A stretch of DNA of 64,000 nt from a virus. Position numbers and translations under genes: made by a program. Below are positions 38,853-55,971 of this stretch, piece after piece. Below the pieces are notes generated by a model. The model saw only the letters and a list, made by a program, of their open reading frames with translations. It was not told where the DNA came from and made no database searches. Location: the IMG/VR virus record IMGVR_UViG_3300045988_160931, positions 46,005-110,004 of that record; one strand, 5' to 3'. Position 1 is the first letter of the stretch. The number at the start of each line of letters is the position of its first letter.

Positions 38853-38889
38853 TCTCTAATCCTACCTTTCCATTTATTCTTTTATTTTA

Positions 38890-39927: not shown

Positions 39928-39948
39928 TAAACATCATCCTCCTTAAAA

Positions 39949-40503: not shown

Positions 40504-40519
40504 GTTATCAATTCTCCTT

Positions 40520-41980: not shown

Positions 41981-42015
41981 AATCCATTTTCACCACCTTC
42001 CACAGCAATATTATA

Positions 42016-42201
42016 TTAAAACAAACTCCGTTCTCTATTTTTTTCATATTCTTCGAGTTTGCATCTTAATAATTCACATTCTTCAAAAACAAAAACATTT
42101 CCTGTTTTCGCTCTCAAAATTGTTAGAAGTGGGACACCGGATTTTACTAAATATCTAGCAAGTTTCTCAATTCTACAACGAAATTCCTTTTTCCCATTCA
42201 T
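42016..42201 (-). CDS. small hypothetical protein
   Basis: 61-aa ORF between the portal and scaffold genes. Confidence 0.3.
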   Translation of the reverse strand: MNGKKEFRCRIEKLARYLVKSGVPLLTILRAKTGNVFVFEECELLRCKLEEYEKNRERSLF

Positions 42202-42216
42202 CTATCTCATCCTCAC

Positions 42217-43755
42217 TTATCTATCAATATTAGAATCTGCATCGGCAGTAATTTCGCCGGATACGTCTAATGTTTCGCCTTTGCTTTCGTTTGTTGGTCT
42301 GCCGACATCGCCAGAAGTGCCGCCATTATAAGAGGATGAAAGGGGAATAAGCTTATTATGAAAATCGAAAATCTCATTTTGAACTATATACGAGCCTAAT
42401 ATTTTTGCTGGGGTCATATCGATCGTAGAAAGCCATCTATCAATAACTGGCGCTCCCAATGTACAAGCTTCTTTGTATCTCTTTGAAACAGTATCCTTAT
42501 TCAATGTTGTAATATCGATTAAATAGAACACAAATTTATAAGCTGCCTTGTTATAGTTCTTAGACTTAATAAAACGATTTACCCATCTTTCAAATTGACG
42601 ATATAAAGAATATATAAATCCAGAATCATTTTCGATTGAGAATGTTACTGCCGTTCCGCTTGAACTTCCGTTATACAATTCTTTTGTGACACCAGAAGAA
42701 TTGTATATTTCATCTACAGCATCAGAAACATTGTTTCTGGTATTAGAACTATTCTTAAAACTTATCGCATTACCATCTGAACCAAGAGTATATAATAAAC
42801 CAATATCATCACCAATGCTTTGCTTATTGATGTCAGCAAATATCGACAATGTTTTTGGTGTCAGCAACGGTTTATCTACGTTATTTTCGTCAATAGGCAC
42901 TTTCATCATGATAGCTTTATAGTTATCTGTAGTAGCAGATTGTAGCTTTAACTTTTTATATAAATCCAGATCGAGGATATCTCTTACAAGACCTACTAAA
43001 AATGGGAAAGGATAAGTCCATTGACTATTCAATTTAATACAAATCTGCTTATCCTCTGGTGGGCAATACCATGAACCACCTTTATCTTTTTGAAAATCCA
43101 AATATGCTTGCCGAACATAGTCTGGGTACGATAACAGCTTATTTGGCTGAATTTTCGCAAGATTTATTGCAAAATTGTATAACCCATCTTGAACCTCGTA
43201 TAATCGTACAAGACGAAAATCAAGATGTTGAATAAAGAAGTCAGACTCATTTTCGCCTTCGTAAACTAAACCACAATATATATCTTGATAGGGGATATAC
43301 TTCATAATCTTTGAAAATTCATGTTTTAAGTTCATTGCATCTAATTTTGAAGCAAGAGCAGAATAGCTTTTCTTCAACGTATCCATTCTTGCAGTAGCTT
43401 TTACATCCACAACATCTATCCCATAGCAAAACATCGCCATATTAGAAAACAACATATTCAATCTGTAATAGTGAGGGGATATGTGCATTAACTTCGTAGA
43501 AATATCAAGAATCATCTCCCAACGATGTTTTGGGTCTTGCAATGCAAAACCGATGTCTTTAATATCTATCCCAAATAAGCAATGATCGCTTAACAACTTT
43601 GAATTATTGCAGATGTCATTCAAAAAAAGCCGTTTGAAAGAAGAATAATCTAAGTTACTAGGATTCCCAGATTGAACAGCCTTTTCAAATTTGCTTTCAT
43701 CAGATTCCATTTGCTTTTTTGTATATACTGGGATATATTTGCTTTTCTTTTTCAT
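42217..43755 (-). CDS. portal protein (putative)
   Basis: 512 aa immediately downstream of TerL. Confidence 0.65.
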   Translation of the reverse strand: MKKKSKYIPVYTKKQMESDESKFEKAVQSGNPSNLDYSSFKRLFLNDICNNSKLLSDHCLFGIDIKDIGFALQDPKHRWEMILDISTKLMHISPHYYRLNMLFSNMAMFCYGIDVVDVKATARMDTLKKSYSALASKLDAMNLKHEFSKIMKYIPYQDIYCGLVYEGENESDFFIQHLDFRLVRLYEVQDGLYNFAINLAKIQPNKLLSYPDYVRQAYLDFQKDKGGSWYCPPEDKQICIKLNSQWTYPFPFLVGLVRDILDLDLYKKLKLQSATTDNYKAIMMKVPIDENNVDKPLLTPKTLSIFADINKQSIGDDIGLLYTLGSDGNAISFKNSSNTRNNVSDAVDEIYNSSGVTKELYNGSSSGTAVTFSIENDSGFIYSLYRQFERWVNRFIKSKNYNKAAYKFVFYLIDITTLNKDTVSKRYKEACTLGAPVIDRWLSTIDMTPAKILGSYIVQNEIFDFHNKLIPLSSSYNGGTSGDVGRPTNESKGETLDVSGEITADADSNIDR

Positions 43756-43771
43756 AATTCATCCTCCTTCC

Positions 43772-45340
43772 TTAATATAATTTTGCTTTATGACTCATTT
43801 TAGCCAACGCAGCAGCATAAACCATAGCGTCAAATTCATCTTCTTCATCATCAAGTTTTGATTCTAATTGCGTCATCACATAATAATTATAAGCCAATGA
43901 ACTATATCTATCTTTACGCATACCACTTTTTTCTTTTATTCTTATGTTTGTACCTTTTACTTCGTATTGTAAATTTATCAATTCATAAACCAATAAACTT
44001 GTCTGTATATATGGCATCTTATACATTAACTGCTCTTCGGGAGTGAGTTTTTCAAAGTTCTTTATTGTGGCTTTCAGTTCTTTTTCCGCCTCTGATTCAT
44101 TCAACAAGAGATTTATCTTACCTGAAATAAAGGCGTTCCTAAGCATAACACAAATATCATTATTAAATTGTACGGTGCCTTTGATTGACCAAATAACCTT
44201 TGGTGCATCTGCCACCTTACAACGTTCTTCCATCGCTTTATTATTACAGCAGGAGAGTGCAGGGTATGTTTCGCCAGTTTCCGGGTCTATAATATCTTTA
44301 ATTAACATATCATATACACCAAGTCCTGTGCCGGCAGTATCAATTACTAAATCAGTACAGTCAAATATACTAAATAATCTGCGTATCTTTAATGCTAGAT
44401 CATCTGTTGTCATTCCTTCAACATTTTCAAGGTACACAATATTTGCGATATATCGTTTGCCATTTGGTTTTGCCGAATTGATAATAATTGAACTAGCATC
44501 GTTAGAGTTCTTATGTTTTGATGCCATCAACGCAATATCAATAGACAATATTCTTCTTTCATCCGGTGCCAGATCAGGTAGTTTAGACCTTTTGGACATA
44601 ACTGTCCGATTTGTATAAAATGCCGTTTTTATCTTTCTTCTACGTGATATATCATTGAATGTAAAGAATGAACCATCAGTATCTCGAATAGGTAGGCAGC
44701 CCATTTCCATTTGGAACATACGTTCATCAAAATCTTCCTCTGACATTTCATCTTCGATTTCAATTCGCTTTTTCAAGCCTTCTTTAATTGCAATTTGATA
44801 AGGTAAGGCACAGACAAAATAACCGGTTCTACCGCCTAATAAATTGAATGTGAAAGCTTTGGATTTTTTGTAAGACCAGTGACTTTCAAACCAACAGGAT
44901 GACATATAAATTTCAATATTAGTTTCAAGAAGTTCTGGCTTGCCTTGATATTCTTTCTTGCTTAAATAAGCTGGTTGTCTAGGCGAACCCAAGAATCTTT
45001 TTAATACAGTATCGATCGTATCTTTGTCGAGCATTCTAAATTCATCCAATACCAATACATTGGCACGGTTACCTCTAGCATTGTCGCCACCTGTAACAAC
45101 TTTTATCCAAGAACCATTATGGAAATTGATATAAGCCAAATTATAACCTATTGAAAAGTTTTTTATCTCTCGTCTTAAATTTTCCGAACCTTCACCATAG
45201 TTTTTCATAAAATCATCGACAATTTTTGAGAGTACTTCATTCGCTTGTGACCTAGTTGCAGACGCTACACAAATTTTTGTTTTAGGGAATAGGATGCAGC
45301 GAACAACGCAAAATAACGCTGTTAGCCAGGTTTTACCAAT
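43772..45340 (-). CDS. terL: terminase large subunit, exon 2 (begins IGKTW...)
   Basis: Starts in the middle of Walker A (..IGKTWLTALF). Walker B-like VLVLDEF. The C-terminal nuclease half includes LSIDIALM. Confidence 0.85.
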   Translation of the reverse strand: MGKTWLTALFCVVRCILFPKTKICVASATRSQANEVLSKIVDDFMKNYGEGSENLRREIKNFSIGYNLAYINFHNGSWIKVVTGGDNARGNRANVLVLDEFRMLDKDTIDTVLKRFLGSPRQPAYLSKKEYQGKPELLETNIEIYMSSCWFESHWSYKKSKAFTFNLLGGRTGYFVCALPYQIAIKEGLKKRIEIEDEMSEEDFDERMFQMEMGCLPIRDTDGSFFTFNDISRRRKIKTAFYTNRTVMSKRSKLPDLAPDERRILSIDIALMASKHKNSNDASSIIINSAKPNGKRYIANIVYLENVEGMTTDDLALKIRRLFSIFDCTDLVIDTAGTGLGVYDMLIKDIIDPETGETYPALSCCNNKAMEERCKVADAPKVIWSIKGTVQFNNDICVMLRNAFISGKINLLLNESEAEKELKATIKNFEKLTPEEQLMYKMPYIQTSLLVYELINLQYEVKGTNIRIKEKSGMRKDRYSSLAYNYYVMTQLESKLDDEEDEFDAMVYAAALAKMSHKAKLY

Positions 45341-46667
45341 CAATTTTGTTATCCTATAAGCTTTTTATCTTATAGTTCTTATAGTTTCCTATAAGTTCAG
45401 CATATATTTTCATCCTCGTTTTACGTTAGGTTTGAGAATTGCAAATTCTCTCATATTACACTATATGTAATAATGCCGGACACTCTTGGAGAGATTATTC
45501 TTTTCGTCACTCTCTATGCGTTACAATTCTATTTGACCTTTTAATTCCAAATAGTTATCTCGGTATTGTCATATAACATAGTTACTTAGATTTCCACCGA
45601 TTTTGCCCGATTTATACTTGATTATCACTAACCAAGAGAGCATTTACTTTGTAATAATTTGAATTTATTATACTTTCTATCTAATTTTTGAACATTTTCG
45701 TTATAATATAAAAGTTCCATCAAACGATATGCTTCTTTTCCATTAAAATAAATTCTATGCTTTCTAGGCGTCTCAGAATATACATGTGATTTAATAGAAT
45801 AGTCATGGCTAACTCTATCAGATATATACTCTAACGCTTTTTTATTATATGATGTGATATGAACAGTTGGATAATACTTTTTATTTTTATTGACATAAAT
45901 GCACCCATCGCCATCTATATATCCTCTTAAAAAATCAATAAAATATTGTTTTAGTACAGGAAATTCTGACATATATGTTTTATTGCAAACAATGTTTTTA
46001 TCAATCAAATCTTCTACTAATTTTTTTGAATAAACTCTCAAACTAACAAGATCTGAAACGGTAACATTTTTATTATTCAAAATAACTCTTTCAAAATGAT
46101 TTTCTTTAATCTCGTGTACTCCGCCAAGTTCATTATTTAAGTCAATTAAAACCTGTTTATCACTCTTCTGCAATCTCATACAAAATTCATAGCTTCTATT
46201 TTCAGAATTGCATATCACGCATCCATCAGCATAAATATATCCTAACCAATATGCTTTATCTGGTGTATCAATTTTTTCAAAATAATTATCGTTGAACTTT
46301 CTGCTTTTATTTTCTAAATAATGCTCTGCATAATGTCTAATTTGTCTTTCTGAGAACCCAAGCTTATTAGCTATATATTTATAGGAATATTTTTTATAAT
46401 TTTGCTCCATATATTTTTTGTCATTGCTGGAAAATATAGAACGATTAGATTTCTTCTTCCCATTATTATGAATCCACCCAGCTATTTGAGTAGCAGAATA
46501 ATTAGTTCCTAATTTAATAGCTATTTCCTTATATGACATATTTTCATAATTATTTGAAATAAAAGTCTTTTGATTTTCATTAAACAATTCTCTTATAATA
46601 AACACCTCTTTTAATAAAAAAGAGGTGGGCGATATTTATTCGCCAAACCTCATTATTACATTTATAT
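45341..46667 (-). mobile_element. group I-type intron (about 1327 nt) interrupting terL
   Basis: The terL frame hits a stop 2 codons after ..FWAARS and resumes at IGKT 1.3 kb downstream. The insert holds a free-standing LAGLIDADG ORF in its own frame. Exon 1 ends in T (46668) and the intron ends in G (45341), as expected for U-1 and omegaG. Confidence 0.7.
45628..46605 (-). CDS. double-motif LAGLIDADG homing endonuclease with two N-terminal HTH-like repeats
   Basis: YWLGYIYADGCV and FLRGYIDGDGCIY. N-terminal MSYKEIAIKLG... and YSYKYIANKLGFSERQIRHY. Confidence 0.85.
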   Translation of the reverse strand: MFIIRELFNENQKTFISNNYENMSYKEIAIKLGTNYSATQIAGWIHNNGKKKSNRSIFSSNDKKYMEQNYKKYSYKYIANKLGFSERQIRHYAEHYLENKSRKFNDNYFEKIDTPDKAYWLGYIYADGCVICNSENRSYEFCMRLQKSDKQVLIDLNNELGGVHEIKENHFERVILNNKNVTVSDLVSLRVYSKKLVEDLIDKNIVCNKTYMSEFPVLKQYFIDFLRGYIDGDGCIYVNKNKKYYPTVHITSYNKKALEYISDRVSHDYSIKSHVYSETPRKHRIYFNGKEAYRLMELLYYNENVQKLDRKYNKFKLLQSKCSLG

Positions 46668-46856
46668 ACTCCGTGCAGCCCAAAACATAAAATGGTTATT
46701 GTGCATCATCGCATAAATCAAAAACTTCTGAAATAATTTCAATTTTATATTCAGATATTCTTCCACAAAACGCTGGGGATTCTCTCGATAAAAACTACCC
46801 CAAATTCCAACGCCTTCAAGAAGCTTATCATTCACAGTGCTTTTTATTTCTATCAT
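46668..46856 (-). CDS. terL: terminase large subunit, exon 1 (63 aa, ends ..MFWAARS)
   Basis: AGAGGTG SD, 7 T, then ATG at 46856. The peptide MIEIKSTVNDKLLEGVGIWGSFYRENPQRFVEEYL... is typical of a TerL N-terminus. Confidence 0.75.
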
Positions 46857-46869
46857 AAAAAAACACCTC

Positions 46870-47946
46870 TTATTCATCAGAAGATTCTTGCCCGAATAAA
46901 GCATCGAACAGTTCTTCTGTATCATCAGATTCAATTTTTTCTGGTCTAGTTACTGTATATTTTTGAATAAACTTATCATACATTTCAGTAACAGCATTCT
47001 TCAAATTCATCATCTTTGCAAGATGCCCCTTAAAGAACACATCTAAATATCTACCAATATGATCTACGTCTTTTAATTCTTCATCTACACCGGGTAAAGG
47101 CCTAGTGTTTTCATATTTATCAAGCAACACTCCAAATGATTGTGCAGAATTTACATCTTCCGAAGATGCCTGTTTTGGCTGTAACTTTGCAGAATCCATA
47201 AGCTTAATCAAAGTTAAATCCAAATCTTTTGTATCTTCTGCATTTAGAGTCTTTTTGTGTATCGCAAGTTGAGTAAAACAAATTCGCTTAAAGATTTCTT
47301 CTTGGGCTTTTGAATTGCATTCATGCCGTGAAATCCAATCTTCATACTGGGTTTGTAAAAACTCATAGTCTGAATCTAAAAGTCCATATCCAAATGTTTT
47401 CTTTGTCTCTTCCGAAATCTTATTCGCAACTTGATTTTTCACAGCAGTAGATACCATATGCTTCTCTACTTCTGGTGAAATATCATCCATTAAGTCAGAT
47501 GTATCTTTATCTTTTTCAACAGGGACTAAATCTCCAACAGCATCTATCTTAAATAATGCTTCATCAAGCCCCATATCCTTGTATTGTGACATACTTAATG
47601 TTTGAATATAGGCAGTTAAAACGCTCTTAAAACGTCCATCAGAGAATTTTCTAAAAGCGGAATCAAACAACTCTTCAGACCAATACCAATCAAAATTCAA
47701 GCACAATCTACGAATTGTATTCTTCTGAAAGTTATATGGATTTATTTTCTTAAATTTACTTGCATATTCATTATAAAGAATATCTACACACTTCTTGCAA
47801 ATTGGTGTTTTTCCATACGTTTCCTTATAAAATTCGCTTTTTACTGCATAGAATTTACTAGATGGTTGTGTTACACCACAATGGCAGCATCTTATAGTCT
47901 CTTTTTTAGGACGGCCTCTCGGTCTCGCATTCGCTATATTTTCCAT
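46870..47946 (-). CDS. terminase small subunit-like DNA-binding protein (putative)
   Basis: 358 aa directly upstream of terL. Basic N-terminus RPRGRPKK plus a Cys4 cluster. Confidence 0.4.
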   Translation of the reverse strand: MENIANARPRGRPKKETIRCCHCGVTQPSSKFYAVKSEFYKETYGKTPICKKCVDILYNEYASKFKKINPYNFQKNTIRRLCLNFDWYWSEELFDSAFRKFSDGRFKSVLTAYIQTLSMSQYKDMGLDEALFKIDAVGDLVPVEKDKDTSDLMDDISPEVEKHMVSTAVKNQVANKISEETKKTFGYGLLDSDYEFLQTQYEDWISRHECNSKAQEEIFKRICFTQLAIHKKTLNAEDTKDLDLTLIKLMDSAKLQPKQASSEDVNSAQSFGVLLDKYENTRPLPGVDEELKDVDHIGRYLDVFFKGHLAKMMNLKNAVTEMYDKFIQKYTVTRPEKIESDDTEELFDALFGQESSDE

Positions 47947-47958
47947 AAAATCACCGCC

Positions 47959-49149
47959 TTAATGCAAAATAACGGGATACATACACTGTACCCCGTTACT
48001 ATCACATATTAAAACTGTCTGAGATGGTTTCCCAGTCAATCTTTTTTGTACGCAATAATCATCGCCGCTGCCACCAAGACACCCAGATCGAACCATATAA
48101 ACATCTGAAATTACCTCCATCGCAGGAGTATGATAATGTCCAAATAAAACTCCGGCTGGTTTCTTCCCAGTAGCAAGTACTAAATTAGATAGCCCTCTCT
48201 TAGAGAAACTATCATAATCACCATGGCAAATATAATAATCAAGTCCCTCAACTTGAATATAATTTAACGATGTTTCATTTGATGAAACCGAATGAAAGTT
48301 AGGAATATGTTTCAAAGAATTACAAATATACCAACTTATCAGATCATCAAGTCTCTCGTCTTTCATAGAATCATCTTTCTTAGAAGTAATTCTTGAATGG
48401 TTCCCAGAAACATTTGCGAAACAAACATCGTCAAACATATTTGTGAGTTTATACAAAAAGTCAGAAACTAATTCAGAAGCTTTAATAACTTGCTGAATAA
48501 CATTTTCTCGATTAGTAACAGCAATCGTATAGTGGATATTACCAGAAACAAGATCGCCTAAACCGACAACAAATGCTTTAGAAATGCAATTCATTTCTCT
48601 TATAATTTCTATCTTCTGCAAGTATTCATCCAATCTTTCTTTCGCAATATCCGAATTGTATTTCCCAAATATAGAATCATACGTTGCACCAATATGTAAA
48701 TCTGACAAACAGATCATCATTGTTTTATCGTCACAATATGGAATTTGCTGTGTTTTTGCAATTTGGTTTACAGGATATTTCACTTCGCATGACCTGCGAA
48801 TAATATCCTCTAAATAATCTAATCGTTGTTCTACTCTTGCATCAGAATAATTCTGTTTTTGCCATGCGTTTCTTTCGTCTCTAAATTGAATCTTTGCACG
48901 TTCTAATTCACGTTTCTTTTGTTCAAGTTCTTCAATTTGCTCGTCTATATCAGACAATTTTTTCTGATTAGAATTATACATTCTATCGAAATACTGTCGT
49001 TCTTTTCGAAATTTACTTTCTGTATAATTTGTGCCTAACAGTTCATTTAATATATCTGCAACCTTTTGCCATGAGCCGATAAGTTCCTTATCACTCGTAA
49101 TTCGATAGATCAATTCTTCATCTGTCTCATTTTCAAATCTCTTATACAT
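47959..49149 (-). CDS. calcineurin-like metallophosphoesterase with an N-terminal coiled-coil domain
   Basis: DLHIG, GDLVSGNIH, GNHS, CHGDY and GHYH motifs in the canonical order. Confidence 0.75.
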   Translation of the reverse strand: MYKRFENETDEELIYRITSDKELIGSWQKVADILNELLGTNYTESKFRKERQYFDRMYNSNQKKLSDIDEQIEELEQKKRELERAKIQFRDERNAWQKQNYSDARVEQRLDYLEDIIRRSCEVKYPVNQIAKTQQIPYCDDKTMMICLSDLHIGATYDSIFGKYNSDIAKERLDEYLQKIEIIREMNCISKAFVVGLGDLVSGNIHYTIAVTNRENVIQQVIKASELVSDFLYKLTNMFDDVCFANVSGNHSRITSKKDDSMKDERLDDLISWYICNSLKHIPNFHSVSSNETSLNYIQVEGLDYYICHGDYDSFSKRGLSNLVLATGKKPAGVLFGHYHTPAMEVISDVYMVRSGCLGGSGDDYCVQKRLTGKPSQTVLICDSNGVQCMYPVILH

Positions 49150-49168
49150 TCTCTATCCTCTATAAAAA

Positions 49169-49642
49169 TTATACGTTTAGAATAGTTTCCTTTGTAAATG
49201 TTGGTGCTTTGCTACGAATATCTTCCATGATTGCAGCAATATCTTTCACAACAACTTCATCAAAAACAACACAATATGCTTGTGCAACTAATTCCTTCGT
49301 TGTTAAAACATTGGAATCAAGTGCAGATTGAGGAATCTTTGCAGTATCGATCTTGTACAATGCTTCAAAATCTTTGTCCAGCAAAATTTCTTTGTTTGAA
49401 AGTACAGGAAGTGTAACTTTTACAACACTATCGCTTACTGAATCATCGGTAACTTCAAGAGCAGAACCAACTAACTTTACATTTTTGGAAAATGTTAAAT
49501 TTCGATATGTTACTTTAGAAGGGAAGTCCCGTAAAATCTCTCTTTCTTCATCCTCTGACAAAGTTTCGGTTCCAAGAGAATCAATTGTAATTTTTGTTGA
49601 GAACACATGGTTCTCTATATCATGAGTAATTTTCAAATACAT
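49169..49642 (-). CDS. hypothetical protein
   Basis: 157-aa ORF. Confidence 0.45.
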   Translation of the reverse strand: MYLKITHDIENHVFSTKITIDSLGTETLSEDEEREILRDFPSKVTYRNLTFSKNVKLVGSALEVTDDSVSDSVVKVTLPVLSNKEILLDKDFEALYKIDTAKIPQSALDSNVLTTKELVAQAYCVVFDEVVVKDIAAIMEDIRSKAPTFTKETILNV

Positions 49643-49911
49643 TTTTTATCATCCTTTATTTGATTTCTTATTTGAGATAATGCACGAATCAAAACATTGA
49701 TCTTGTCATAATCTAATTTTCCACTAATTTCAGTGTTGTCAGTAATTGCATCCGACATAGTTATCTGAATATTTCCTTCATTTTCTAAATAATCAAGCCG
49801 AAGTATAATATCTTTAATCAATTCGAACTCAATCCCAGACGCAATAGGGGATGAGTCATATTTTCTATATTCTACTTTTACAGTATCACTATTCGTAATC
49901 GTAATCGCCAC
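49633..49911 (-). CDS. hypothetical protein (GTG start)
   Basis: 92-aa ORF; first gene of the late operon after the tRNA array. Confidence 0.45.
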   Translation of the reverse strand: MAITITNSDTVKVEYRKYDSSPIASGIEFELIKDIILRLDYLENEGNIQITMSDAITDNTEISGKLDYDKINVLIRALSQIRNQIKDDKKCI

Positions 49912-50010: not shown

Positions 50011-50084
50011 TGGTGGCAGAGTCAAGAGTCGAACTTGAATCACAAGTTTATGAGACTTGTATGTTTCCTTTACACCACTCTGCT
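50011..50084 (-). tRNA. tRNA, anticodon CAT (Met or Ile2), with unpaired A1 x C72
   Basis: Hand-folded. Acceptor AGCAGAG/CTCTGCC, T-arm TCAAG-TTCGACT-CTTGA, anticodon stem CAAGT/ACTTG with loop CTCATAA. CCA is encoded. Confidence 0.75.
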
Positions 50085-50093
50085 AATTTTATT

Positions 50094-50171
50094 TGGTCTA
50101 AGTGACAGGGTTCGAACCTGCGGCATCTTGTTCCCAAAACAAGCATTCTAACCAAACTGAATTACACTTAG
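50094..50171 (-). tRNA. tRNA-Pro (TGG)
   Basis: Acceptor CTAAGTG/CACTTAG (C1:G72), T-loop TTCGAAC, anticodon stem CTTGT/ACAAG with loop TTTGGGA. CCA is encoded. Confidence 0.85.
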
Positions 50172-50174
50172 ATT

Positions 50175-50250
50175 TGGTTGGACTAGCTGGGTTCGAACCA
50201 GCGAAATGACGGAGTCAAAGTCCGTTGCCTTACCACTTGGCTATAGTCCA
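50175..50250 (-). tRNA. tRNA-Gln (TTG)
   Basis: Acceptor TGGACTA/TAGTCCA (U1:A72), T-arm GCTGG-TTCGAAC-CCAGC, anticodon stem ACGGA/TCCGT with loop CTTTGAC. CCA is encoded. Confidence 0.85.
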
Positions 50251-50876
50251 ATATAGTATCCTAAAAATGAATACTCTATTGTGTATATGCAACCGACCTT
50301 CGCCGTACCACCCATTTACCGCACACATATTCATCCACTAGGGAGACAAGTCTGAGCGTTTGGGAGCGACCCTTGGCTTCTTGCCCCGGCATATGCCAAA
50401 TCCTATACAAGTCTGATTACTTGTAACTTTCACCCGAACCATTCAGAAGTTTCTATCATTTATATATAATCCTATAGAATATTCCTTGCACATTGGGCTA
50501 CTCGAACCAGAATCTCGCCTTATACCCTAGTTTCCTAGGTTCAGTGCAAGTAAGACTGTGTTTTGATATTTCCTAGGTTTGCATAAGTAATCAGCTTACA
50601 CCTAACTAGGATTCCACTTGTAGTATTTTACAAGTATCTATTTCCACAGCGACAAGATTCCATGATTTTGTGTACAGTAATGTCAGCACATTTGCCACCA
50701 AGGGACTGTTTTCAATCCTCAACAGTATGTTACCAATACTGCCGATTATAGCAACTAGCTTATCAGTTAATATGCTATCTACTTGATTTACAGACAAATT
50801 CTTCAGCAAGTTGGTTAGACTATCTGCACTGAGTTACTGCATACACACAATACAATATTCAATTATCAAGATACTG
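50251..50876 (-). ncRNA. 626-nt ORF-poor spacer inside the tRNA array; candidate large structured RNA
   Basis: Flanked directly by tRNA genes on the same strand. Only one 67-aa ORF in the track. Locally GC-rich blocks (line 50341: 35/60 G+C). Several 6-bp hairpins and a duplicated TTTCCTAGGTT (50531, 50569). Confidence 0.35.
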
Positions 50877-50951
50877 TGGAGCAAACAACCAGAATCGAAC
50901 TGGCATTCTCTGATTGGGAATCAAATGTTCTAACCATTGAACTATGCTTGC
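50877..50951 (-). tRNA. tRNA-Gly (CCC)
   Basis: Acceptor GCAAGCA/TGTTTGC, D-arm GTTC-AATGGTTA-GAAC, anticodon loop TTCCCAA, U73 discriminator. CCA is encoded. Confidence 0.8.
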
Positions 50952-51011
50952 ATGACAAGTCCAACACCCGAAGGTGTATAAAACTATGTTGGTCTAAAAC
51001 CAACAGTGCAG

Positions 51012-51099
51012 TGGTGGGTGAAGTAGGAATCGAACCTACGGTGTTTCTAATGTAACGGATTTACAGTCCGCCGACTTCGCCAACTGGTCACATTCACCC
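51012..51099 (-). tRNA. tRNA-Tyr (GTA), long variable arm
   Basis: 88 nt. Acceptor GGGTGAA/TTCACCC, T-arm GTAGG-TTCGATT-CCTAC, anticodon loop CTGTAAA. CCA is encoded. Confidence 0.8.
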
Positions 51100-51103
51100 A
51101 TAA

Positions 51104-51190
51104 TGGTGCCGCTAACCGGACTTGAACCGGTACGATATCGCTATCGAGGGATTTTAAGTCCCTTGTGTCTGCCTATTCCACCACAGCGGC
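51104..51190 (-). tRNA. tRNA-Leu (TAA), long variable arm
   Basis: 87 nt. Acceptor GCCGCTG/TAGCGGC, anticodon stem AGGGA/TCCCT with loop CTTAAAA. CCA is encoded. Confidence 0.85.
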
Positions 51191-51260
51191 ATTTACGACT
51201 TTCTTATGTGTCCTAAGACATTAAGCTTTCACTGCCAATCCGAAGATCTCAGAGGTCACT

Positions 51261-51337
51261 TGGTGGGCTATGTAGGACTCGAACCCACAGTCAACCGGTT
51301 ATGAGCCGGATGCTTTAACCAATTAAGCTAATAGCCC
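51261..51337 (-). tRNA. tRNA, anticodon CAT (Met or Ile2)
   Basis: Acceptor GGGCTAT/ATAGCCC, D-arm GCTT-AATTGGTTA-AAGC, anticodon loop CTCATAA. CCA is encoded. Confidence 0.8.
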
Positions 51338-51675
51338 TTATGAGTGCTTTATCGTAGCACACGCAATCTGCATTCCTAATCCAATGGAATCTAAATCGCA
51401 CGTCCAACTTTCATGGATAGTTCTGGACAAACTAGTATTCACTCGATTCGTGACAATTCCGGATAGATGAATTACACAAATCAGCTTAACATTTTTTCTT
51501 TGCATATATGCCTTGCAAGGTCTAACCCACTTCTCTACCTTGCTCACCGCAAGCCTACATTAACACTGCGATTCCCATTACCCGTTAAATCTCTACAAGA
51601 AACTACTTCTAACCGCTTGGATTTTAGCTGTTATATCTAAGTGGGCGGTATACTTTCAAATCTTGTACCCACTAT
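51338..51675 (-). ncRNA. 338-nt ORF-poor spacer inside the tRNA array; candidate structured RNA or processed spacer
   Basis: Lies between the CAT tRNA and tRNA-Lys on the same strand. Contains only a 69-aa track ORF with no SD. Confidence 0.25.
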
Positions 51676-51751
51676 TGGTGCAGTTTATGGGATTTGAACC
51701 CATGACTCTCACATTAAAAGTGTGATACTCTACCAGCTGAGTTAAAACTGC
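51676..51751 (-). tRNA. tRNA-Lys (TTT)
   Basis: Acceptor GCAGTTT/AAACTGC, anticodon stem TCACA/TGTGA with loop CTTTTAA. CCA is encoded. Confidence 0.85.
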
Positions 51752-51756
51752 ACATT

Positions 51757-51845
51757 TGGCGTAGAAGGTGGGATTCGAACCCACGGTTCCTCTCGGAATC
51801 ACTAGTTTTCAAGACTAACTCTTTCAACCACTCAGACACTTCTAC
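51757..51845 (-). tRNA. tRNA-Ser (TGA), long variable arm
   Basis: 89 nt. Acceptor GTAGAAG/CTTCTAC, T-arm GTGGG-TTCGAAT-CCCAC, anticodon loop CTTGAAA, G73. CCA is encoded. Confidence 0.8.
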
Positions 51846-51855
51846 GCAGTTTGTG

Positions 51856-51941
51856 TGGTGGGGGTAAAGGGATTTGAACCCTTATGTCACTAGGACAACG
51901 GTACCTAAAACCGTCCTGTCTGCCTATTCCAGCATACCTCC
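51856..51941 (-). tRNA. tRNA-Leu (TAG), long variable arm
   Basis: 86 nt. T-arm AAGGG-TTCAAAT-CCCTT, anticodon stem ACGGT/ACCGT with loop TTTAGGT. One A x C mismatch in the acceptor stem. CCA is encoded. Confidence 0.75.
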
Positions 51942-52181
51942 ATAAACGGTATTCTAATTTAACCTAAATCTTCCAAAAGAATACTTATCTAGAATTTCTT
52001 GCAATTTTCCAATTTAAGCAGCCAGCCTTTTTCAAACAAATACCGTTTTGCTGGTTTCATAACTAGTGCGTAGCGTGAGAATTGAACTCACATACAACAA
52101 CGTATTCCCAAAACTACACATTTGTCAGATCAGAACTTGGAGATGTAGTATAATTCTGATCTGACTACGAAAGGAGTCACT

Positions 52182-52433
52182 ATGAAAGAAAACCGATGTA
52201 AGGAACACGAAGAAACCTTACACTTATATAATACGATTTTTCTACCCAAAACTAAAACAAAATCAAATATTTTTTTTGAGAATTCTCGCAGATATATATC
52301 CTGCGTTCATCCATATACGGCTGCCATTAAGACAGCCTTAGTTAGAGAGAGGATAGAGAATCGCACAAACAACTATGTTATTAGCTGTTCATGTTCTTAT
52401 TTTTATCAGCAATCCTATTTATCTTATCCTTAA
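52182..52433 (+). CDS. small hypothetical protein (uncertain)
   Basis: 83-aa ORF with AAAGGAG SD 5 nt before the ATG. Preceded by a 12-bp hairpin. Its 3' end overlaps the convergent gene. Confidence 0.35.
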   Translation: MKENRCKEHEETLHLYNTIFLPKTKTKSNIFFENSRRYISCVHPYTAAIKTALVRERIENRTNNYVISCSCSYFYQQSYLSYP

Positions 52434-52722
52434 ATCTTCGACTAGCATCTGCCTTTACTTTGATTTTTGCTTTCACATATTGGTTCTCACCAACTAGATT
52501 ATTTTGCTTAAATCTTGGAGGCATATATGTTCCTGAAATCCAAATACCATCAAAAACTTGCATTTTTACATCTTGATCTTCATTTACAGATAAGAGCCGT
52601 GAGTTAATTTCATCTTCAATTGCATCGTAAATAATCTTTATGAGTTCCGGATTGCGTTCTGTTTTATCAATAATAGATTGAATAATATCATTTTTCTTAG
52701 CTAAATACGTCCCTATTTTTAT
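52381..52722 (-). CDS. small hypothetical protein; putative ATA start
   Basis: The track shows only the last 60 aa, but the frame is open to 52722 and the upstream peptide (GTYLAKKNDIIQSIIDKTERNPELIKIIYDAIEDEINSRLL...) reads as protein. AAAGGGAAG SD, then ATA at 52722-52720. Confidence 0.45.
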   Translation of the reverse strand: MKIGTYLAKKNDIIQSIIDKTERNPELIKIIYDAIEDEINSRLLSVNEDQDVKMQVFDGIWISGTYMPPRFKQNNLVGENQYVKAKIKVKADASRRFKDKINRIADKNKNMNS

Positions 52723-52868: not shown

Positions 52869-55739
52869 TTACTTTTTTCTGTATTCAGATTGTTTTTCAG
52901 TTTTATATCTTCTTCTATATTCAGCATAGCATTTTCTGCATTTTGTTGTCGTATTATCATTCTTTTTTACAAAAAACCATGTACCACATTCTTCACACTG
53001 TATTGACTTTTCAAAAGATAATCCATATTGACGAATATCTTTTAGTATCAAGTTCTTGTTGCGAAGTAAATTTCTGTAGATTTGTTTTCCAAAGCAAAAC
53101 CAAAGTACTTCTTTGTTTTTGCTTTTCTTAAAGTCATATAGATACTTAACTAAAATATCCGTGATTTCCTTTTCTGTCTTACCAGTCTTAAAAAACTCTT
53201 GTCTTATTTCTTTCGCAACGTCACCAATAACAATATCATTCTTCAAATTTGAATCCAAATTTACAGAAGATGATGCAGAAAAAACATTATCATCGACATT
53301 TGTTATCTTATACCGATATTTCCGACTCATATCTAAATATGTTAGGATAACACTATCTGTTCTATCTGCAATCGGCTTACCATTCCCATTAACTTCAATT
53401 CTGATCTTCAGTTCTGGATTTGACATCATATAAGCATAATTGATTTTCCCTATTTTTAATCCTCTACAATTGATTCTTGGATTTGGGATAATCTTATCTA
53501 ATTGATTTACTAAACTTTCATTGACAGCTTCAACCTGAGATTCCAACTTATCTTTTGCATACACAAAAAAGTGTGGCAGTTTATTTTTTGTAAACATCTT
53601 AACTTGTTCACCAAAATCATCTGTTCTTTCTGGCATATATAATGTCTTAGCAGCATCAATTGAGAAATTGGATTCAGCACATAACAATCGGATTGTATCT
53701 AGTGCAATTTTCTTTTCTTCCTCAGTACCATATTGAAAAACACCACAATTCCAAATCTTTGAGATATTATTGCTATATACTCCAATATTCCCATATGTAA
53801 ACGCAGCATTTAACCCATTATATAATACTTCATTTGTAATCTCAGAAGCATCTGCTTTACGCATATTATAATAAAGAGGAACAAAATCATATTTTTCTTT
53901 ATTTCGTTTTGCAATTTCTATAATCTTTTTATCAGACACAACAAGGAGCGTATCCCCATCCACATCGAGCTGCAAAATTTTGGTAATTAAATCATGAGTA
54001 CTTGTATACAAGCTATTTGTACAGAACCATTTCCGAATTTTATCTCTATCCTGGCATTCAATATAAGCTTTGTTTTTACGTACAGCGTGTTCAAAGAATA
54101 AATGTGGGGAGCGAAGGCAATCAAGTTCTTCATCTTTTCGAAATAGCCAACAAAATACTTCGTCATCTTTCAAAAGACCTTCTGGAACCTCAACCCCTTG
54201 AAATAACCATTGACAAAAAGCAAATAAGTCCGGCAAAACAAACGTGTATTTTCCTTTAACCTCTAACTTCCCTGATTTATATCGCTTTACCATGCTATCT
54301 TTGATCTCACGAATTTTTGATTTGATGAAATCATCATTTATCAGATTCGGATATAGAGCAATCGACTTTTGGAGATATGTTTGATTCTGATTATATGCTG
54401 TAATACCTAATGCAGCTTTTATCGTATCTACAGAAGAACATAAGGAATTTAGTTTTTTTATAGAATCACTTGCGATCTCAACAATTTCATCATCTGTAAT
54501 GTCGGATAAGGATTGCAGCATTTGATAATTGATTTTAGAATCCTTAATTCGCTCTTCTTCTGGTTTAGTATAGCAAGCGTGGCATCTATATTTTTTGAAT
54601 TTTCGCTTATAATCTTCCCATGAATCATAGTATTTATAAAGCTTAAACTGGCTTTTCGTCATAATAACCTGAATCTTTTCGGCTATAACATCATGTTCTA
54701 TCCCATAAATATCTTTTATAACAGGGGAACAGTTGAACTCTTGTATGAACGAAACGAAATCAAATACACCAAGTAATCCTTTAATCCATGGTAAACGAAC
54801 CATCCTCGTACATCCCATTTCTGGAAGCATGATTCCGCAGCCATCAGTATGAGGGATAGGAACCCTATCATGTTTTCTAGTAATTGAATAATCTTCATCA
54901 GAAATATAATCAAATTCACCATATACTTGCGTTTCAAAATCATCTACAACAATAACTCTATCAATATCGAAACCAATCCATTCATCAGTAGCAGAATTGG
55001 ATAAAGCAGTGTAGGCAAGAAATTTATTTGGATTTATTCCACCCTTTTCATTTATCTTATCAAGCGTCAATCCACACATAAGTGTTTTTTCTTTCTCTTT
55101 CCAAATTGATTCTTTCATAAAAACACATTTCTTAGTTCTGATCTGTCCGGCAGAAGATGTAAAATACACATATTTTTCTCCGTGATACATAAATCCAAAG
55201 TGAATCATATCTTTTATTAGATCATAATAATAAATTTGGACAACCATAAAAGCATCTGAAAATTCATCCTGTTTCATTCCAATTGTTCTTGTGCAAAATG
55301 AATCAAATACTGAAATCACATTTTTATTGCAGAACTCACCAGAAACAGTCTTAATCGTTCTTTCGTCTAGCGTTCGAATATGATCTTTCCCGTTTGTAAG
55401 AATATTTTGGTTTGTTTTGTTCTCCAATAAAGAAAGCAATTTGTCTTTACTCTGCTTTATTCTTTCTCTCTTATGCACGATCAGATCACTATAGAATCGG
55501 TAATCAGAAACTAGATTAAAAATATCATCTGGGACATCCAATTCTTCTTTTACCATTGATTTGAATTCTTTTTCATGATACCCTTGTTTCTCAACAGAGG
55601 TTTCTATCAATTCAAGGCGTGTTTTTAGATATTTTCGTTCCTGCCGAAGTTTATGGTTCAAAATATGTAATCTTCTTTCTCGATTGCTATAAAAATTACC
55701 TGTGTCTACCGATAAAATCTTACACTGCTTATCAAGCAC
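52869..55739 (-). CDS. YonO / RdRP-like single-chain two-barrel RNA polymerase with a C-terminal zinc ribbon
   Basis: Ordered motifs match the RdRP/YonO family: FTSSAGQIRTKKCVFM, PHTDGCGIMLP, RLPWIKGLLGVF, MTKSQFKLYKY, INYQMLQSL, CLRSPHLFFEH, and catalytic LDVDGDTLLVV (DxDGD). C-terminal CEECG...CRKC. Confidence 0.75.
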   Translation of the reverse strand: MLDKQCKILSVDTGNFYSNRERRLHILNHKLRQERKYLKTRLELIETSVEKQGYHEKEFKSMVKEELDVPDDIFNLVSDYRFYSDLIVHKRERIKQSKDKLLSLLENKTNQNILTNGKDHIRTLDERTIKTVSGEFCNKNVISVFDSFCTRTIGMKQDEFSDAFMVVQIYYYDLIKDMIHFGFMYHGEKYVYFTSSAGQIRTKKCVFMKESIWKEKEKTLMCGLTLDKINEKGGINPNKFLAYTALSNSATDEWIGFDIDRVIVVDDFETQVYGEFDYISDEDYSITRKHDRVPIPHTDGCGIMLPEMGCTRMVRLPWIKGLLGVFDFVSFIQEFNCSPVIKDIYGIEHDVIAEKIQVIMTKSQFKLYKYYDSWEDYKRKFKKYRCHACYTKPEEERIKDSKINYQMLQSLSDITDDEIVEIASDSIKKLNSLCSSVDTIKAALGITAYNQNQTYLQKSIALYPNLINDDFIKSKIREIKDSMVKRYKSGKLEVKGKYTFVLPDLFAFCQWLFQGVEVPEGLLKDDEVFCWLFRKDEELDCLRSPHLFFEHAVRKNKAYIECQDRDKIRKWFCTNSLYTSTHDLITKILQLDVDGDTLLVVSDKKIIEIAKRNKEKYDFVPLYYNMRKADASEITNEVLYNGLNAAFTYGNIGVYSNNISKIWNCGVFQYGTEEEKKIALDTIRLLCAESNFSIDAAKTLYMPERTDDFGEQVKMFTKNKLPHFFVYAKDKLESQVEAVNESLVNQLDKIIPNPRINCRGLKIGKINYAYMMSNPELKIRIEVNGNGKPIADRTDSVILTYLDMSRKYRYKITNVDDNVFSASSSVNLDSNLKNDIVIGDVAKEIRQEFFKTGKTEKEITDILVKYLYDFKKSKNKEVLWFCFGKQIYRNLLRNKNLILKDIRQYGLSFEKSIQCEECGTWFFVKKNDNTTTKCRKCYAEYRRRYKTEKQSEYRKK

Positions 55740-55971
55740 CTATCAAACACACCCTCTCTTAACATCAATCCCAATTTCCATTTTCAATACAGAAATCGTC
55801 ATATGCTTTTTTATAATCATAATAGTCCGAATCATTATCGCCAGAATATCTATCATCAATTGGCGGCAAAAAATCTTTGTCCGTCAAAACTACATTCTTG
55901 TTTGTATTCCCATTCTTTTTCAACGGGAATAATTCCTTTCTTTTCTCTATCTCATACTCGCCACCTTTCTA

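What the first reader, a model, noticed from the sequence alone, without database searches (positions are those of the whole stretch)
52869..55739. YonO / RdRP-like single-subunit two-barrel RNA polymerase
The 956-aa protein carries, in order, the motif series of the eukaryotic RdRP / Bacillus SPbeta YonO family:
- SSAGQIRTKK (compare SSSQLR)
- HTDGCG
- RLPWIKGLLG
- KSQFK
- NYQMLQSL
- RSPHLFFEH (compare RNPxxHPGD)
- the metal-binding LDVDGD (DxDGD)

It also has a C-terminal CxxC...CxxC ribbon that I do not recall for YonO. Such enzymes transcribe phage late genes independently of the host RNAP. Here the gene sits upstream of the tRNA array and late operon and next to the large non-coding tract, so either could be its template.
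Basis: partly seen in the sequence, partly recalled or inferred. Interest (0 to 1): 0.65.

Follow-up and report, generated by a model that had tools for sequence, protein, structure and literature searches.

The report
YonO-type phage RNA polymerase gene
This gene encodes a clear relative of YonO, the single-chain RNA polymerase that Bacillus phage SPbeta uses to transcribe its late genes, here in an SPbeta-like phage of gut Clostridia, so it is a correct but already-known kind of enzyme.

Summary
The 956-aa ORF at 52869-55739 (-) exists, and all seven listed motifs and both C-terminal CxxC pairs are present.

- The protein is 42% identical to experimentally characterised SPbeta YonO over 92% of its length (E 2e-177).
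- It passes Pfam RdRP's gathering cutoff.
- Its DVDGD aligns with the aspartate triad shown to be essential in YonO.
- A confident AlphaFold model (pLDDT 89) matches only eukaryotic cellular RdRPs (RDR2, QDE-1; E down to 1e-15).

Gene order also copies SPbeta: polymerase, HU-like gene, an RNA-rich gap, then exonuclease, terminase, portal, tape measure and endolysin, all on one strand.

One correction: the C-terminal zinc ribbon is not new, because YonO has it and it is invariant across 92 homologues.

The family is large (about 2,100 clusters at 50% identity), mostly prophages of Lachnospiraceae.

Extras found:
- The gap holds 10 tRNAs and a full-length ROOL RNA.
- A 41-nt promoter-like module occurs twice, once ahead of that RNA/late block.
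- ROOL is not generally linked to YonO (2 of 120 independent ROOL loci).

Verdict: a new member of a known kind, of moderate-to-low interest.

The parts
52869..55739 (-). yonO-like gene: 956-aa single-subunit two-barrel RNA polymerase
   Evidence: ORF. 42% identity to SPbeta YonO, E 2e-177. PHROG 8308 E 1.6e-238. Pfam RdRP above the gathering cutoff. AF2 model pLDDT 89.2, pTM 0.85. Foldseek PDB top 19 hits are all RDR2/QDE-1, E 1e-15 to 6e-10.
53952..53966 (-). codons for D592-V-D-G-D596, the predicted catalytic metal-binding aspartate triad
   Evidence: Aligns with YonO LQFDNDGDKA. That is the segment changed to NNNGN in the catalytically dead YonO 3D>3N mutant (mutagenic primer; result). D592, D594, G595 and D596 are invariant in 92 sequences.
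55128..55157 (-). codons for SSAGQIRTKK (195-204), the conserved basic motif of the first barrel region
   Evidence: S196, A197, Q199, I200, R201 and K203 are invariant. It lies inside the only stretch that matches the Pfam RdRP profile (residues 169-306).
52929..52997 (-). codons for the C-terminal CxxC...CxxC (C915, C918, C934, C937), a predicted zinc ribbon
   Evidence: All four Cys are invariant in A2 and present in SPbeta YonO and D-1873. The model shows two short beta hairpins, E910-914 and E921-925. There are weak zinc-ribbon hits: Pfam Zn_ribbon_8 E 0.94 and S27e E 0.79.
55765..55923 (-). 52-aa acidic ORF immediately upstream of the polymerase gene, in the position of SPbeta yonP
   Evidence: The motif LTDKDF.PP.D.RY...DY is shared with the upstream ORFs of L165 and L003. 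No family hit. No detectable similarity to YonP.
52381..52722 (-). HU-like DNA-binding protein gene (yonN equivalent) directly downstream of the polymerase gene
   Evidence: Pfam Bac_DNA_binding 22.5 bits (cutoff 22.4), profile 2-90/90. An HU-like ORF follows the polymerase gene in nearly all of about 80 related loci, in SPbeta (yonN) and in D-1873 (hup). The full-length frame has no canonical start codon in the window.
52217..52257 (-). promoter-like module, copy A: TTTTAGTTTT-GGGTAG-AAAAATCGTATTATATAAGTGTAAG, pointing into the RNA leader and late block
   Evidence: Its 24-nt core is the only block kept perfectly between the window and L165 (polymerase 79% identical) in an otherwise diverged gap. 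A second copy is in the window, with 0 expected by chance. It lies in the gap equivalent to where SPbeta's P_YonO start site was mapped. The function is inferred, not shown.
399..439 (+). promoter-like module, copy B: TTTTAGTTTT-AATGCT-AAAAATCGTATTATAATAGTGTAAG, directly upstream of the rightward nucleotide-metabolism block
   Evidence: 22 of 24 core positions and 10 of 10 of the upstream box are identical to copy A. The downstream genes are a RecD-like helicase, NrdD, dUTPase, ThyA, RNA ligase and an integrase.
52060..52170 (-). conserved structured RNA element (12-14 bp hairpin plus a tRNA-like acceptor/T-arm mimic) between module A and the first tRNA
   Evidence: The hairpin at 52165-52124 keeps pairing through compensatory and G-U changes in L005 and L004. 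The MFE folds agree. A T-loop-like GTGAG-TTCAATT-CTCAC is present. ARAGORN does not call it a tRNA at default settings.
50011..51941 (-). array of 10 tRNA genes with an embedded ROOL RNA (50275-50857): the predicted 5' leader of the late transcription unit
   Evidence: ARAGORN. Rfam ROOL RF03087 288 bits, model 1-574/574, E 4e-65. Same strand as the polymerase and the late genes.
11420..49911 (-). co-directional late block: YonJ-like exonuclease, YonG-like protein, LAGLIDADG endonuclease, terminase, portal, head and tail genes, 2874-aa tape measure, tail proteins, endolysin
   Evidence: PHROG and Pfam hits. The order is as in SPbeta yonK-yonJ-yonG-yonF-yonE and in L003, where Pfam YonJ, YonG and YonD families hit.

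Best explanation
The gene encodes an orthologue of SPbeta YonO. YonO is a roughly 100-kDa single-chain, two-barrel, DNA-dependent RNA polymerase, distantly related to the beta/beta' core of cellular RNA polymerases and to eukaryotic RNAi RdRPs.

The host genome is an SPbeta-like temperate siphophage or prophage of gut Clostridia (probably Lachnospiraceae).

By homology, the enzyme binds catalytic Mg2+ through D592, D594 and D596 and extends RNA on a DNA template without host subunits.

By synteny with SPbeta, it is made from an early/middle operon (two paralogous genes, a small acidic ORF, the polymerase, an HU-like protein). It then starts transcription in the gap after the HU-like gene (51942-52380) and reads through a leader of tRNAs and a ROOL RNA into about 38 kb of packaging, head, tail and lysis genes.

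What is shown here: homology, conserved catalytic residues, fold and gene order.

What is inferred: DNA-dependent activity, the late regulon, and the promoter.
For: Sequence:
- tblastn to SPBc2 yonO gives 42.3% identity, E 2e-177; Clostridium phage D-1873 gives 45%; Psychrobacillus phage Perkons gives 38.5% over the full length.
- The three-way alignment is collinear from the N terminus to the zinc ribbon.
- PHROG 8308 E 1.6e-238. Pfam RdRP 33.7 bits against a cutoff of 23.8.

Catalysis:
- DVDGD aligns with YonO's DNDGD. Its 3D>3N mutant still forms elongation complexes but is inactive.
- The triad and 120+ other positions are invariant in 92 homologues.

Fold:
- AF2 pLDDT 89.2 and pTM 0.85.
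- All 19 significant PDB matches are RDR2 or QDE-1, over 840-940 aligned columns.
- The BFVD top hits are phage 'RdRP' models, E 2e-31.

Context:
- The order yonO, HU-like gene, RNA gap, YonJ-like exonuclease, YonG-like protein, terminase, portal, tape measure and endolysin lies on one strand. This matches SPbeta and L003.
- The HU-like gene follows the polymerase gene in nearly all related loci.
- Same-strand tRNAs lie 0.6-2.5 kb downstream in about 60 of 80 loci; an upstream tRNA occurs in 1 of 84.

Published function of the orthologue: YonO is a strict DNA-dependent RNAP, is essential for plaque formation, and is required for 37 late genes transcribed as one operon that starts upstream of yonK and an unannotated ncRNA (PMC5467207).
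Against: - No activity, expression or start-site data exist for this phage.
- At 42% identity, template specificity is assumed to be conserved, not shown.
- The catalytic half alone gives no Pfam RdRP hit, and SPbeta YonO itself gives none.
- No PDB sequence relative was found, and no YonO structure is available. The double-psi-barrel placement of DxDGD therefore rests on a predicted model and a whole-chain Foldseek alignment with modest TM-scores (0.41-0.50).
- The promoter could not be identified with confidence. The only repeated module also precedes a nucleotide-metabolism block, which in SPbeta would not be expected to depend on YonO. It also contains a sigma-A-like -10 box.
Confidence: 0.85

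Rival explanations
1. It is a YonO-type polymerase, but its regulon is defined by the repeated 41-nt module. It would then transcribe both the tRNA/ROOL/late block and the rightward nucleotide-metabolism block (helicase, NrdD, dUTPase, ThyA, RNA ligase, integrase). That would make it a middle-plus-late polymerase, not a purely late one.
For: - There are two copies of TTTTAGTTTT-N6-AAAAATCGTATTATAWWAGTGTAAG, each oriented into a co-directional gene block, with 0 expected by chance.
- Copy A is perfectly conserved in a 79%-identity relative while its flanks diverged.
- Near-identical multi-copy promoters are typical of phage single-subunit polymerases (general knowledge).
- The module has no TTGACA-like -35 box, and it was not among the sigma-70-type sites listed (14 weaker sites were not shown).
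Against: - In SPbeta only the late cluster lost expression in the yonO deletion.
- The module contains TATAAT/TATATA, so it could be a host sigma-A promoter helped by a phage activator.
- Only two copies were seen and only close relatives share it.
- No similar sequence was recognised in the SPbeta interval that contains P_YonO.
Confidence: 0.3
2. It is a true RNA-dependent RNA polymerase, as the Pfam family name and some GenBank annotations say. It would copy or amplify phage RNAs such as ROOL or the tRNA leader.
For: - The Pfam family is named RdRP.
- The closest solved structures are RNAi RdRPs.
- Relatives are annotated 'RNA-dependent RNA polymerase' in Perkons, PMBT24 and TR-TP1.
- A highly structured RNA lies next to the gene.
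Against: - The characterised orthologue YonO strongly prefers DNA templates, with Mg2+ or Mn2+.
- The annotations are transfers of the Pfam name, not experiments.
- ROOL is not generally linked to this polymerase: 2 of 120 independent ROOL loci have a distant homologue nearby.
Confidence: 0.04
3. It is a decayed or non-functional prophage remnant of a YonO gene.
For: The neighbouring HU-like gene lacks a canonical start codon in this lineage.
Against: - The ORF is intact at 956 aa, with every family-invariant residue present.
- It is 96-98% identical to copies on other contigs.
- The surrounding 40-kb structural block is intact.
Confidence: 0.02

Closest known systems
YonO of Bacillus subtilis phage SPbeta (SPBc2), Forrest et al. 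2017, PMC5467207
   Same: - Collinear full-length homology (42% identity).
- Same DxDGD triad, first-barrel basic motif and RSPHL motif.
- Same C-terminal CxxC...CxxC.
- Same neighbourhood: small ORF, polymerase, HU-like gene, RNA-containing gap, yonJ/yonG/terminase/portal late block.

   Different: - 956 vs 839 aa. The extra length is a longer N-terminal coiled coil (about residues 55-90) and insertions near 665-675, 780-790 and 805-840; the last has low confidence in the model.
- DVDGD instead of DNDGD.
- The host is a gut Clostridia lineage, not Bacillus.
- The gap holds 10 tRNAs plus ROOL, where SPbeta has about 1.2 kb of unannotated ncRNA with a DUF3800-VIII motif.
Eukaryotic cellular RdRPs of RNA silencing (Neurospora QDE-1, plant RDR2)
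   Same: Overall fold. They are the only significant PDB matches (E 1e-15 to 6e-10, 840-940 aligned columns). Same Pfam family, PF05183.
   Different: - About 12% sequence identity, TM 0.41-0.50.
- Those enzymes copy RNA (QDE-1 can also use ssDNA). The characterised phage orthologue is DNA-dependent.
- The C-terminal zinc ribbon and the phage late-operon context were not compared with these enzymes.
Other phage two-barrel RNA polymerases (crAss-like phage virion RNAP, P23-45 tape-measure-fused RNAP, AR9/phiKZ multisubunit non-virion RNAPs)
   Same: Phage-encoded, rifampicin-insensitive two-barrel enzymes that take over part of the phage programme. This rests on general knowledge and the abstract of 10.1101/2022.12.01.518664.
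   Different: None appeared among the significant structural matches. Those enzymes are virion-packaged, fused to other proteins or multisubunit. This one is a free-standing single chain, like YonO.
T7-type single-subunit RNA polymerases
   Same: Functional analogy only: one polypeptide transcribing late phage genes from phage-specific promoters.
   Different: Unrelated fold (right-hand, Pol I-like). No similarity was detected in any search here.

Membership tests
YonO-like single-subunit two-barrel RNA polymerases | Full-length, collinear sequence homology to SPbeta YonO | tested here: met
   tblastn 42.3% identity, E 2e-177. MAFFT is collinear to the C terminus. 43-46% identity to the Bacillus-clade members in A2.
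YonO-like single-subunit two-barrel RNA polymerases | Catalytic aspartate triad DxDGD at the position shown to be essential in YonO | tested here: met
   LQLDVDGDTLL aligns with YonO LQFDNDGDKAL. That segment is the one mutated in the inactive 3D>3N enzyme. It is invariant in 92 sequences.
YonO-like single-subunit two-barrel RNA polymerases | Conserved basic NTP/nucleic-acid-binding motif of the first (beta-like) barrel | tested here: met
   SSAGQIRTKK, with R201 and K203 invariant, lies inside the Pfam RdRP match.
YonO-like single-subunit two-barrel RNA polymerases | Two double-psi beta-barrels with the aspartate loop at their interface | tested here: inconclusive
   The confident model matches QDE-1 and RDR2 over nearly the whole chain. 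Residue-level superposition of the barrels could not be inspected with the tools. The catalytic half gives no Pfam hit on its own.
YonO-like single-subunit two-barrel RNA polymerases | SPbeta-type genomic context (upstream of the late structural/lysis operon, followed by an HU-like gene) | tested here: met
YonO-like single-subunit two-barrel RNA polymerases | DNA-dependent, processive RNA synthesis, and requirement for late-gene transcription | not testable with these tools
   Known only for SPbeta YonO.
Pfam RdRP (PF05183) | Whole-protein score at or above the curated gathering score | tested here: met
   33.7 bits vs 23.8, E 2.2e-8. The signal is confined to residues 169-306.
ROOL RNA (Rfam RF03087), neighbouring feature | Covariance-model score at or above the gathering score, over the full model | tested here: met
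   288.2 bits vs 99.1, model 1-574/574.

The most novel reading that the evidence does not exclude
The 41-nt bipartite module (TTTTAGTTTT-N6-AAAAATCGTATTATAWWAGTGTAAG) is the long-sought promoter type of a YonO-class polymerase. From copy A, the phage polymerase, not the host enzyme, would produce the tRNA array and the ROOL nanocage RNA as the 5' leader of the late transcript.

That would give a defined promoter for a minimal two-barrel RNAP. It would also give a concrete expression route, timed with lysis, for an ornate RNA of unknown function.

More broadly, the slot between yonN and the late genes would be a conserved 'RNA cargo' site of SPbeta-like phages. It holds tRNAs in most lineages, and ROOL, GOLLD, DUF3800-I/VIII or drum RNAs in 7 of 33 non-redundant loci examined.
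Probability: 0.3. Interest if true: 0.55.

Novelty: new member of a known kind. Interest (0 to 1): 0.33.

Why it matters
YonO-type enzymes are the smallest known relatives of cellular RNA polymerases, and they are used as models for the ancestral two-barrel enzyme. Their promoter and any accessory factors are still undefined.

This window adds nothing new about the enzyme class itself. It does show that a large gut-Clostridia clade keeps the same operon logic as SPbeta: a small ORF, the polymerase, an HU-like protein, an RNA-rich leader, then the late genes.

It also offers a compact candidate promoter and a natural template (tRNAs plus ROOL) that could be tested directly in vitro.

Tried and rejected
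1. PDB sequence searches with the protein and with a 54-sequence profile found no relative.

2. The first AF2 model, from a shallow alignment, had its catalytic segments below pLDDT 50. It was replaced by a model from a two-clade alignment.

3. Pfam on the catalytic half alone, and on SPbeta YonO, gave no hit. Pfam therefore does not by itself place the DxDGD.

4. Exact mapping of the published SPbeta start site (genome position 2225998) onto the phage record was not possible. It could only be bracketed between the primer sites, L001 12282-12524.

5. Gibbs sampling on the gap after the HU gene mostly rediscovered tRNA T-arms.

6. A striking CTTCTTTTCATTCATT..ACCTTTC element is confined to one subclade. 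On the other strand it reads as an RBS plus ATG of a variable small antisense ORF. It was rejected as a general promoter.

7. The idea that ROOL is generally coupled to YonO was tested from the ROOL side and rejected:
- Of 120 ROOL loci fetched with a conserved-core pattern, 2 have a distant YonO-like gene in their flanks, and 1 of 55 with at least 4.5 kb of upstream sequence does.
- Only 4 of the first 80 have a YonJ-like gene.
- At least one 'negative' (L261) is simply this phage truncated before the polymerase gene.

8. blastn of the ROOL copy against GenBank phages gave no match.

9. The window has no near-identical relative among GenBank phages.
Full report
**Observation**

The ORF is real. 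It lies at 52869-55739 on the minus strand and encodes 956 aa from a GTG start. So are CEEC at 915 and CRKC at 934. Ten tRNA genes lie downstream on the same strand (50011-51941).

**Identity**

- PHROGs places the protein in family 8308 (E 1.6e-238, function unannotated).
- Pfam RdRP PF05183 is hit above its gathering score (33.7 vs 23.8 bits).
- tblastn against GenBank phages finds SPbeta/SPBc2 yonO at 42.3% identity over residues 2-884 (E 2e-177). Other SPbeta-like Bacillus phages run at 40-41% identity to residue 937-956. Clostridium phage D-1873 gives 45% and Psychrobacillus phage Perkons 38.5% over the full length. More distant 'RdRP' genes of Enterocloster, Thomasclavelia and C. botulinum c-st phages give 23-29%.
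- A three-way MAFFT alignment with YonO and the D-1873 protein is collinear from the first residues to the C terminus.
- The family is large. There were 3,634 hits at E<=1e-5 among the candidates scored. The exhaustive profile search found 2,094 cluster representatives at 50% identity, 752 of them at E<=1e-30.
- Genomes carrying close relatives are overwhelmingly Lachnospiraceae and other gut Clostridia, often inside megabase chromosomal contigs, so these are prophages.
- A 107-kb IMG/VR contig carries a 98%-identical copy (L005).

**Catalytic residues**

Forrest et al. showed several things about YonO (PMC5467207):
- It is a strict DNA-dependent, highly processive RNA polymerase.
- An aspartate-triad 3D>3N mutant forms elongation complexes but is inactive.
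- Deleting yonO abolishes plaque formation and expression of 37 late genes.
- The late operon starts upstream of yonK and an unannotated ncRNA.

Their mutagenic primer encodes LQF-NNNGN-KA, so the triad is the DNDGD of LQFDNDGDKAL. In my alignment this is the counterpart of LQLDVDGDTLL in the query. In a 92-sequence alignment combining the gut clade and the Bacillus clade (A2), D592, D594, G595 and D596 are invariant. So are R201 and K203 of SSAGQIRTKK; H297, D299, G300 and G302; R315, P317, K320 and G321; S363-K366; and R543, P545, H546, L547 and E550.

**The 'new' zinc ribbon**

The four C-terminal cysteines are invariant in A2. They are present in SPbeta YonO (GCCICG...YCQSCG) and in the D-1873 protein. 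The tblastn alignment to SPBc2 simply stopped at residue 884. The ribbon is therefore a family feature. The model shows two short hairpins there. Only weak zinc-ribbon profile hits were obtained.

**Structure**

A first model from 54 sequences of one clade was poor exactly in the catalytic segments (pLDDT 70.7). Even so, its only significant PDB matches were RDR2.

Adding the Bacillus clade gave pLDDT 89.2 and pTM 0.85, with only residues 818-837 below 50. Foldseek against the PDB then returned 19 significant matches. All of them were Arabidopsis or maize RDR2, or Neurospora or Thielavia QDE-1 (E 1.3e-15 to 6.3e-10, probability 1.00, 675-947 aligned columns, TM 0.38-0.50). The next hit had E>1. 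BFVD returned phage proteins labelled RdRP (E 1.8e-31 and 3.9e-27).

Limits:
- I could not inspect the superposition residue by residue.
- The catalytic half alone does not hit Pfam RdRP, and neither does YonO.
- No PDB sequence relative exists.

The double-psi-barrel placement of the triad is therefore well supported but not verified at residue level.

**Context**

The minus strand from 57924 down to 11420 is one co-directional array, in this order:
- two paralogous genes of unknown function (29% identity, E 4e-17);
- a 52-aa acidic ORF conserved in relatives;
- the polymerase gene;
- an HU-like gene (Pfam PF00216, full domain);
- a 440-nt gap;
- the tRNA array with a full-length ROOL RNA inside it (288 bits);
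- two small ORFs;
- a YonJ-like exonuclease, a YonG-like protein, a LAGLIDADG endonuclease, the large terminase and the portal;
- head and tail genes, an integrase-like gene, a 2,874-aa tape measure, tail proteins and an endolysin.

SPbeta has the same order: yonP-yonO-yonN(HU)-gap-yonK-yonJ-...-yonG-yonF-yonE. In L003 the neighbours even hit the Pfam families named YonJ, YonG and YonD.

Across about 80 IMG/VR loci the HU-like ORF follows the polymerase gene almost without exception. Same-strand tRNAs lie 0.6-2.5 kb downstream in about 60 loci, against one upstream tRNA in 84 loci.

**Where transcription probably starts**

The published P_YonO primers bracket the SPbeta start site to L001 12282-12524, which is 260-500 nt after yonN. 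The equivalent window interval is 51942-52380.

Three near-identical relatives show a hairpin at 52165-52124 that keeps pairing through compensatory and G-U changes. This indicates an RNA made from the minus strand.

Comparison with L165 (polymerase 79% identical) leaves one perfectly conserved 24-nt block in an otherwise diverged gap, AAAATCGTATTATATAAGTGTAAG (52240-52217). It is preceded by a conserved TTTTAGTTTT.

The same module occurs once more in the window, at 399-439 on the plus strand. There, 22 of 24 core positions and 10 of 10 upstream-box positions match, with 0 hits in 100 shuffles. It sits immediately before a rightward block encoding a RecD-like helicase, NrdD, dUTPase, ThyA, RNA ligase and an integrase.

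The module has a TATAAT/TATATA box but no TTGACA-like -35 at 16-18 nt. It was not among the sigma-70-type sites listed by the consensus scan, though 14 weaker sites were not shown. It is a good candidate for a phage-specific promoter. Whether YonO, or the host sigma-A enzyme with a phage factor, uses it cannot be decided here. Its presence before a nucleotide-metabolism block argues against a strictly late, YonO-only role.

**ROOL and other RNAs**

Rfam scans of 30 non-redundant related loci, plus the window, SPbeta and D-1873, found known structured RNAs in the same slot and on the same strand in 7 of the 33:
- ROOL in the window's own lineage, L019 and L084;
- GOLLD in L057;
- DUF3800-I in L030;
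- DUF3800-VIII in SPbeta;
- drum in D-1873.

No paper in the searchable library mentions YonO together with ROOL or GOLLD. The ROOL cryo-EM paper does not discuss its polymerase.

The converse test is negative, however. Of 120 ROOL loci fetched from IMG/VR with a conserved-core pattern, only 2 carry a (distant) YonO-like gene in their flanks, and only 1 of the 55 with at least 4.5 kb of upstream sequence does. Only 4 of the first 80 have a YonJ-like gene nearby. Two contigs that encode both elements keep them apart.

ROOL next to the polymerase is therefore one context among many. The general point is only that this slot in SPbeta-like phages tends to carry tRNAs and structured RNAs.

**Verdict**

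This is a new member of the known YonO family, in a clade that is abundant in gut Clostridia. It has no distinguishing domain. Its extra length comes from a longer N-terminal coiled coil and a few insertions.

The most novel reading not excluded is that the 41-nt module is a YonO-class promoter and that the tRNA/ROOL leader is made by the phage polymerase. I give that about 0.3.

Noticed in passing
window 50275-50857 (-): Full-length ROOL RNA (Rfam RF03087, 288 bits, model 1-574/574). It is embedded in the tRNA array, between tRNA-Gln (50175-50250) and tRNA-Gly (50877-50951), on the same strand as the polymerase and the late genes.
   Followed up: yes
window 52381-52737 (-): The HU-like (yonN-type) gene has no ATG/GTG/TTG start for the full domain. 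Relative to L165, which starts GTG AAT AAA ATA GGC, the window, L005 and L004 carry one extra A in the A-run (GTG AAT AAA AAT AGG). The GTG is therefore out of frame by +1. Possible explanations are a lineage-specific frameshift, a +1 slip at AAA-A, or an unusual start.
   Followed up: partly
window 52060-52170 (-): Conserved structured element upstream of the first called tRNA. It has a 12-14 bp hairpin with compensatory and G-U changes among relatives, followed by an acceptor-like stem enclosing a canonical-looking T-arm (GTGAG-TTCAATT-CTCAC). ARAGORN does not call it at default settings and Rfam has no match.
   Followed up: partly
window 399-439 (+) and 52217-52257 (-): Two copies of a 41-nt bipartite promoter-like module, each pointing into a co-directional gene block. 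One precedes the nucleotide-metabolism genes and the other the tRNA/ROOL/late genes.
   Followed up: partly
window 45628-46605 (-): A LAGLIDADG-type homing endonuclease with N-terminal HTH motifs is inserted between the YonG-like gene and the large terminase gene. The terminase ORF (43772-45343) matches only the C-terminal part of PHROG 2, but it does cover the Pfam Terminase_6N domain.
   Followed up: partly
window 57925-61800: About 4 kb, AT-rich (28% GC at 58-60 kb), with no ORF over about 100 aa, lying where the GC skew changes sign. It contains a perfect 25-bp inverted repeat (58185-58209 / 58250-58274), several copies of a roughly 21-nt TTACAAAAAAGTAAAG-type element, and a 25-nt tandem repeat (58311-58382). 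It looks like a divergent regulatory or origin region, not a template for the polymerase.
   Followed up: partly
window 56178-57062 and 57034-57924 (-): Two overlapping paralogous genes (294 and 296 aa, 29% identity) sit upstream of the polymerase gene. They have no Pfam or PHROG match. Homologous genes occupy the same place in L003, L004 and L165.
   Followed up: partly
window 31230-32300 (-) and 8334-9524 (+): Two tyrosine-integrase-like genes. One lies inside the late structural block, just upstream of the tape-measure gene. The other is at the end of the nucleotide-metabolism block.
   Followed up: no
window 16000-18000: GC content jumps to 47.6% (the window mean is about 33%) inside the 1,883-aa tail/pre-neck-appendage-like gene (15638-21289).
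   Followed up: no
window 51338-51675 (-): A 338-nt stretch inside the tRNA array (between tRNA-Met and tRNA-Lys) has no tRNA, Rfam hit or convincing ORF.
   Followed up: no
window 52760-52830 (-): The intergenic region between the polymerase stop and the HU-like gene carries four TGTAC(A/C)T-type repeats arranged as inverted pairs. They are conserved in L165 and may be an operator.
   Followed up: no
related loci: GenBank phi3T, SPR, Goe11, Goe14, SPbetaL3-L7; L079, L082, L083: In several relatives the polymerase gene is interrupted. tblastn matches come in two pieces, with intervening ORFs (one annotated as a GIY-YIG nuclease). In L079, L082 and L083 the match spans 3.2-4.1 kb instead of 2.9 kb. 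This suggests mobile introns or inteins inside yonO.
   Followed up: no
related loci L057 9931-10424; L030 9386-9493; L003 2160-2222 and 3216-3288; L035 1089-1158 and 1892-1961; L077 14436-14504: Other structured RNAs in these SPbeta-like phages: GOLLD and DUF3800-I in the slot after the HU-like gene; twister-P5 and pistol ribozymes among the small leftward genes upstream; a skipping-rope RNA further downstream.
   Followed up: partly
related loci L038, L043, L066, L077 (about +0.85 to +1.85 kb after the polymerase stop): Two same-strand tRNAs enclose about 900 nt with no Rfam match and no long ORF. This could be an unrecognised large RNA in the same slot.
   Followed up: no
related loci L003, L007, L008, L009, L010, L016, L018, L029, L035 (53-92 nt after the HU-like stop): Subclade-specific, highly conserved CTTCTTTTCATTCATT...ACCTTTC element flanked by covarying hairpins. 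On the opposite strand it reads as GAAAGG-N7-ATGAATGAAAAGAAG, the start of a small antisense ORF of variable length (5 aa or more).
   Followed up: partly
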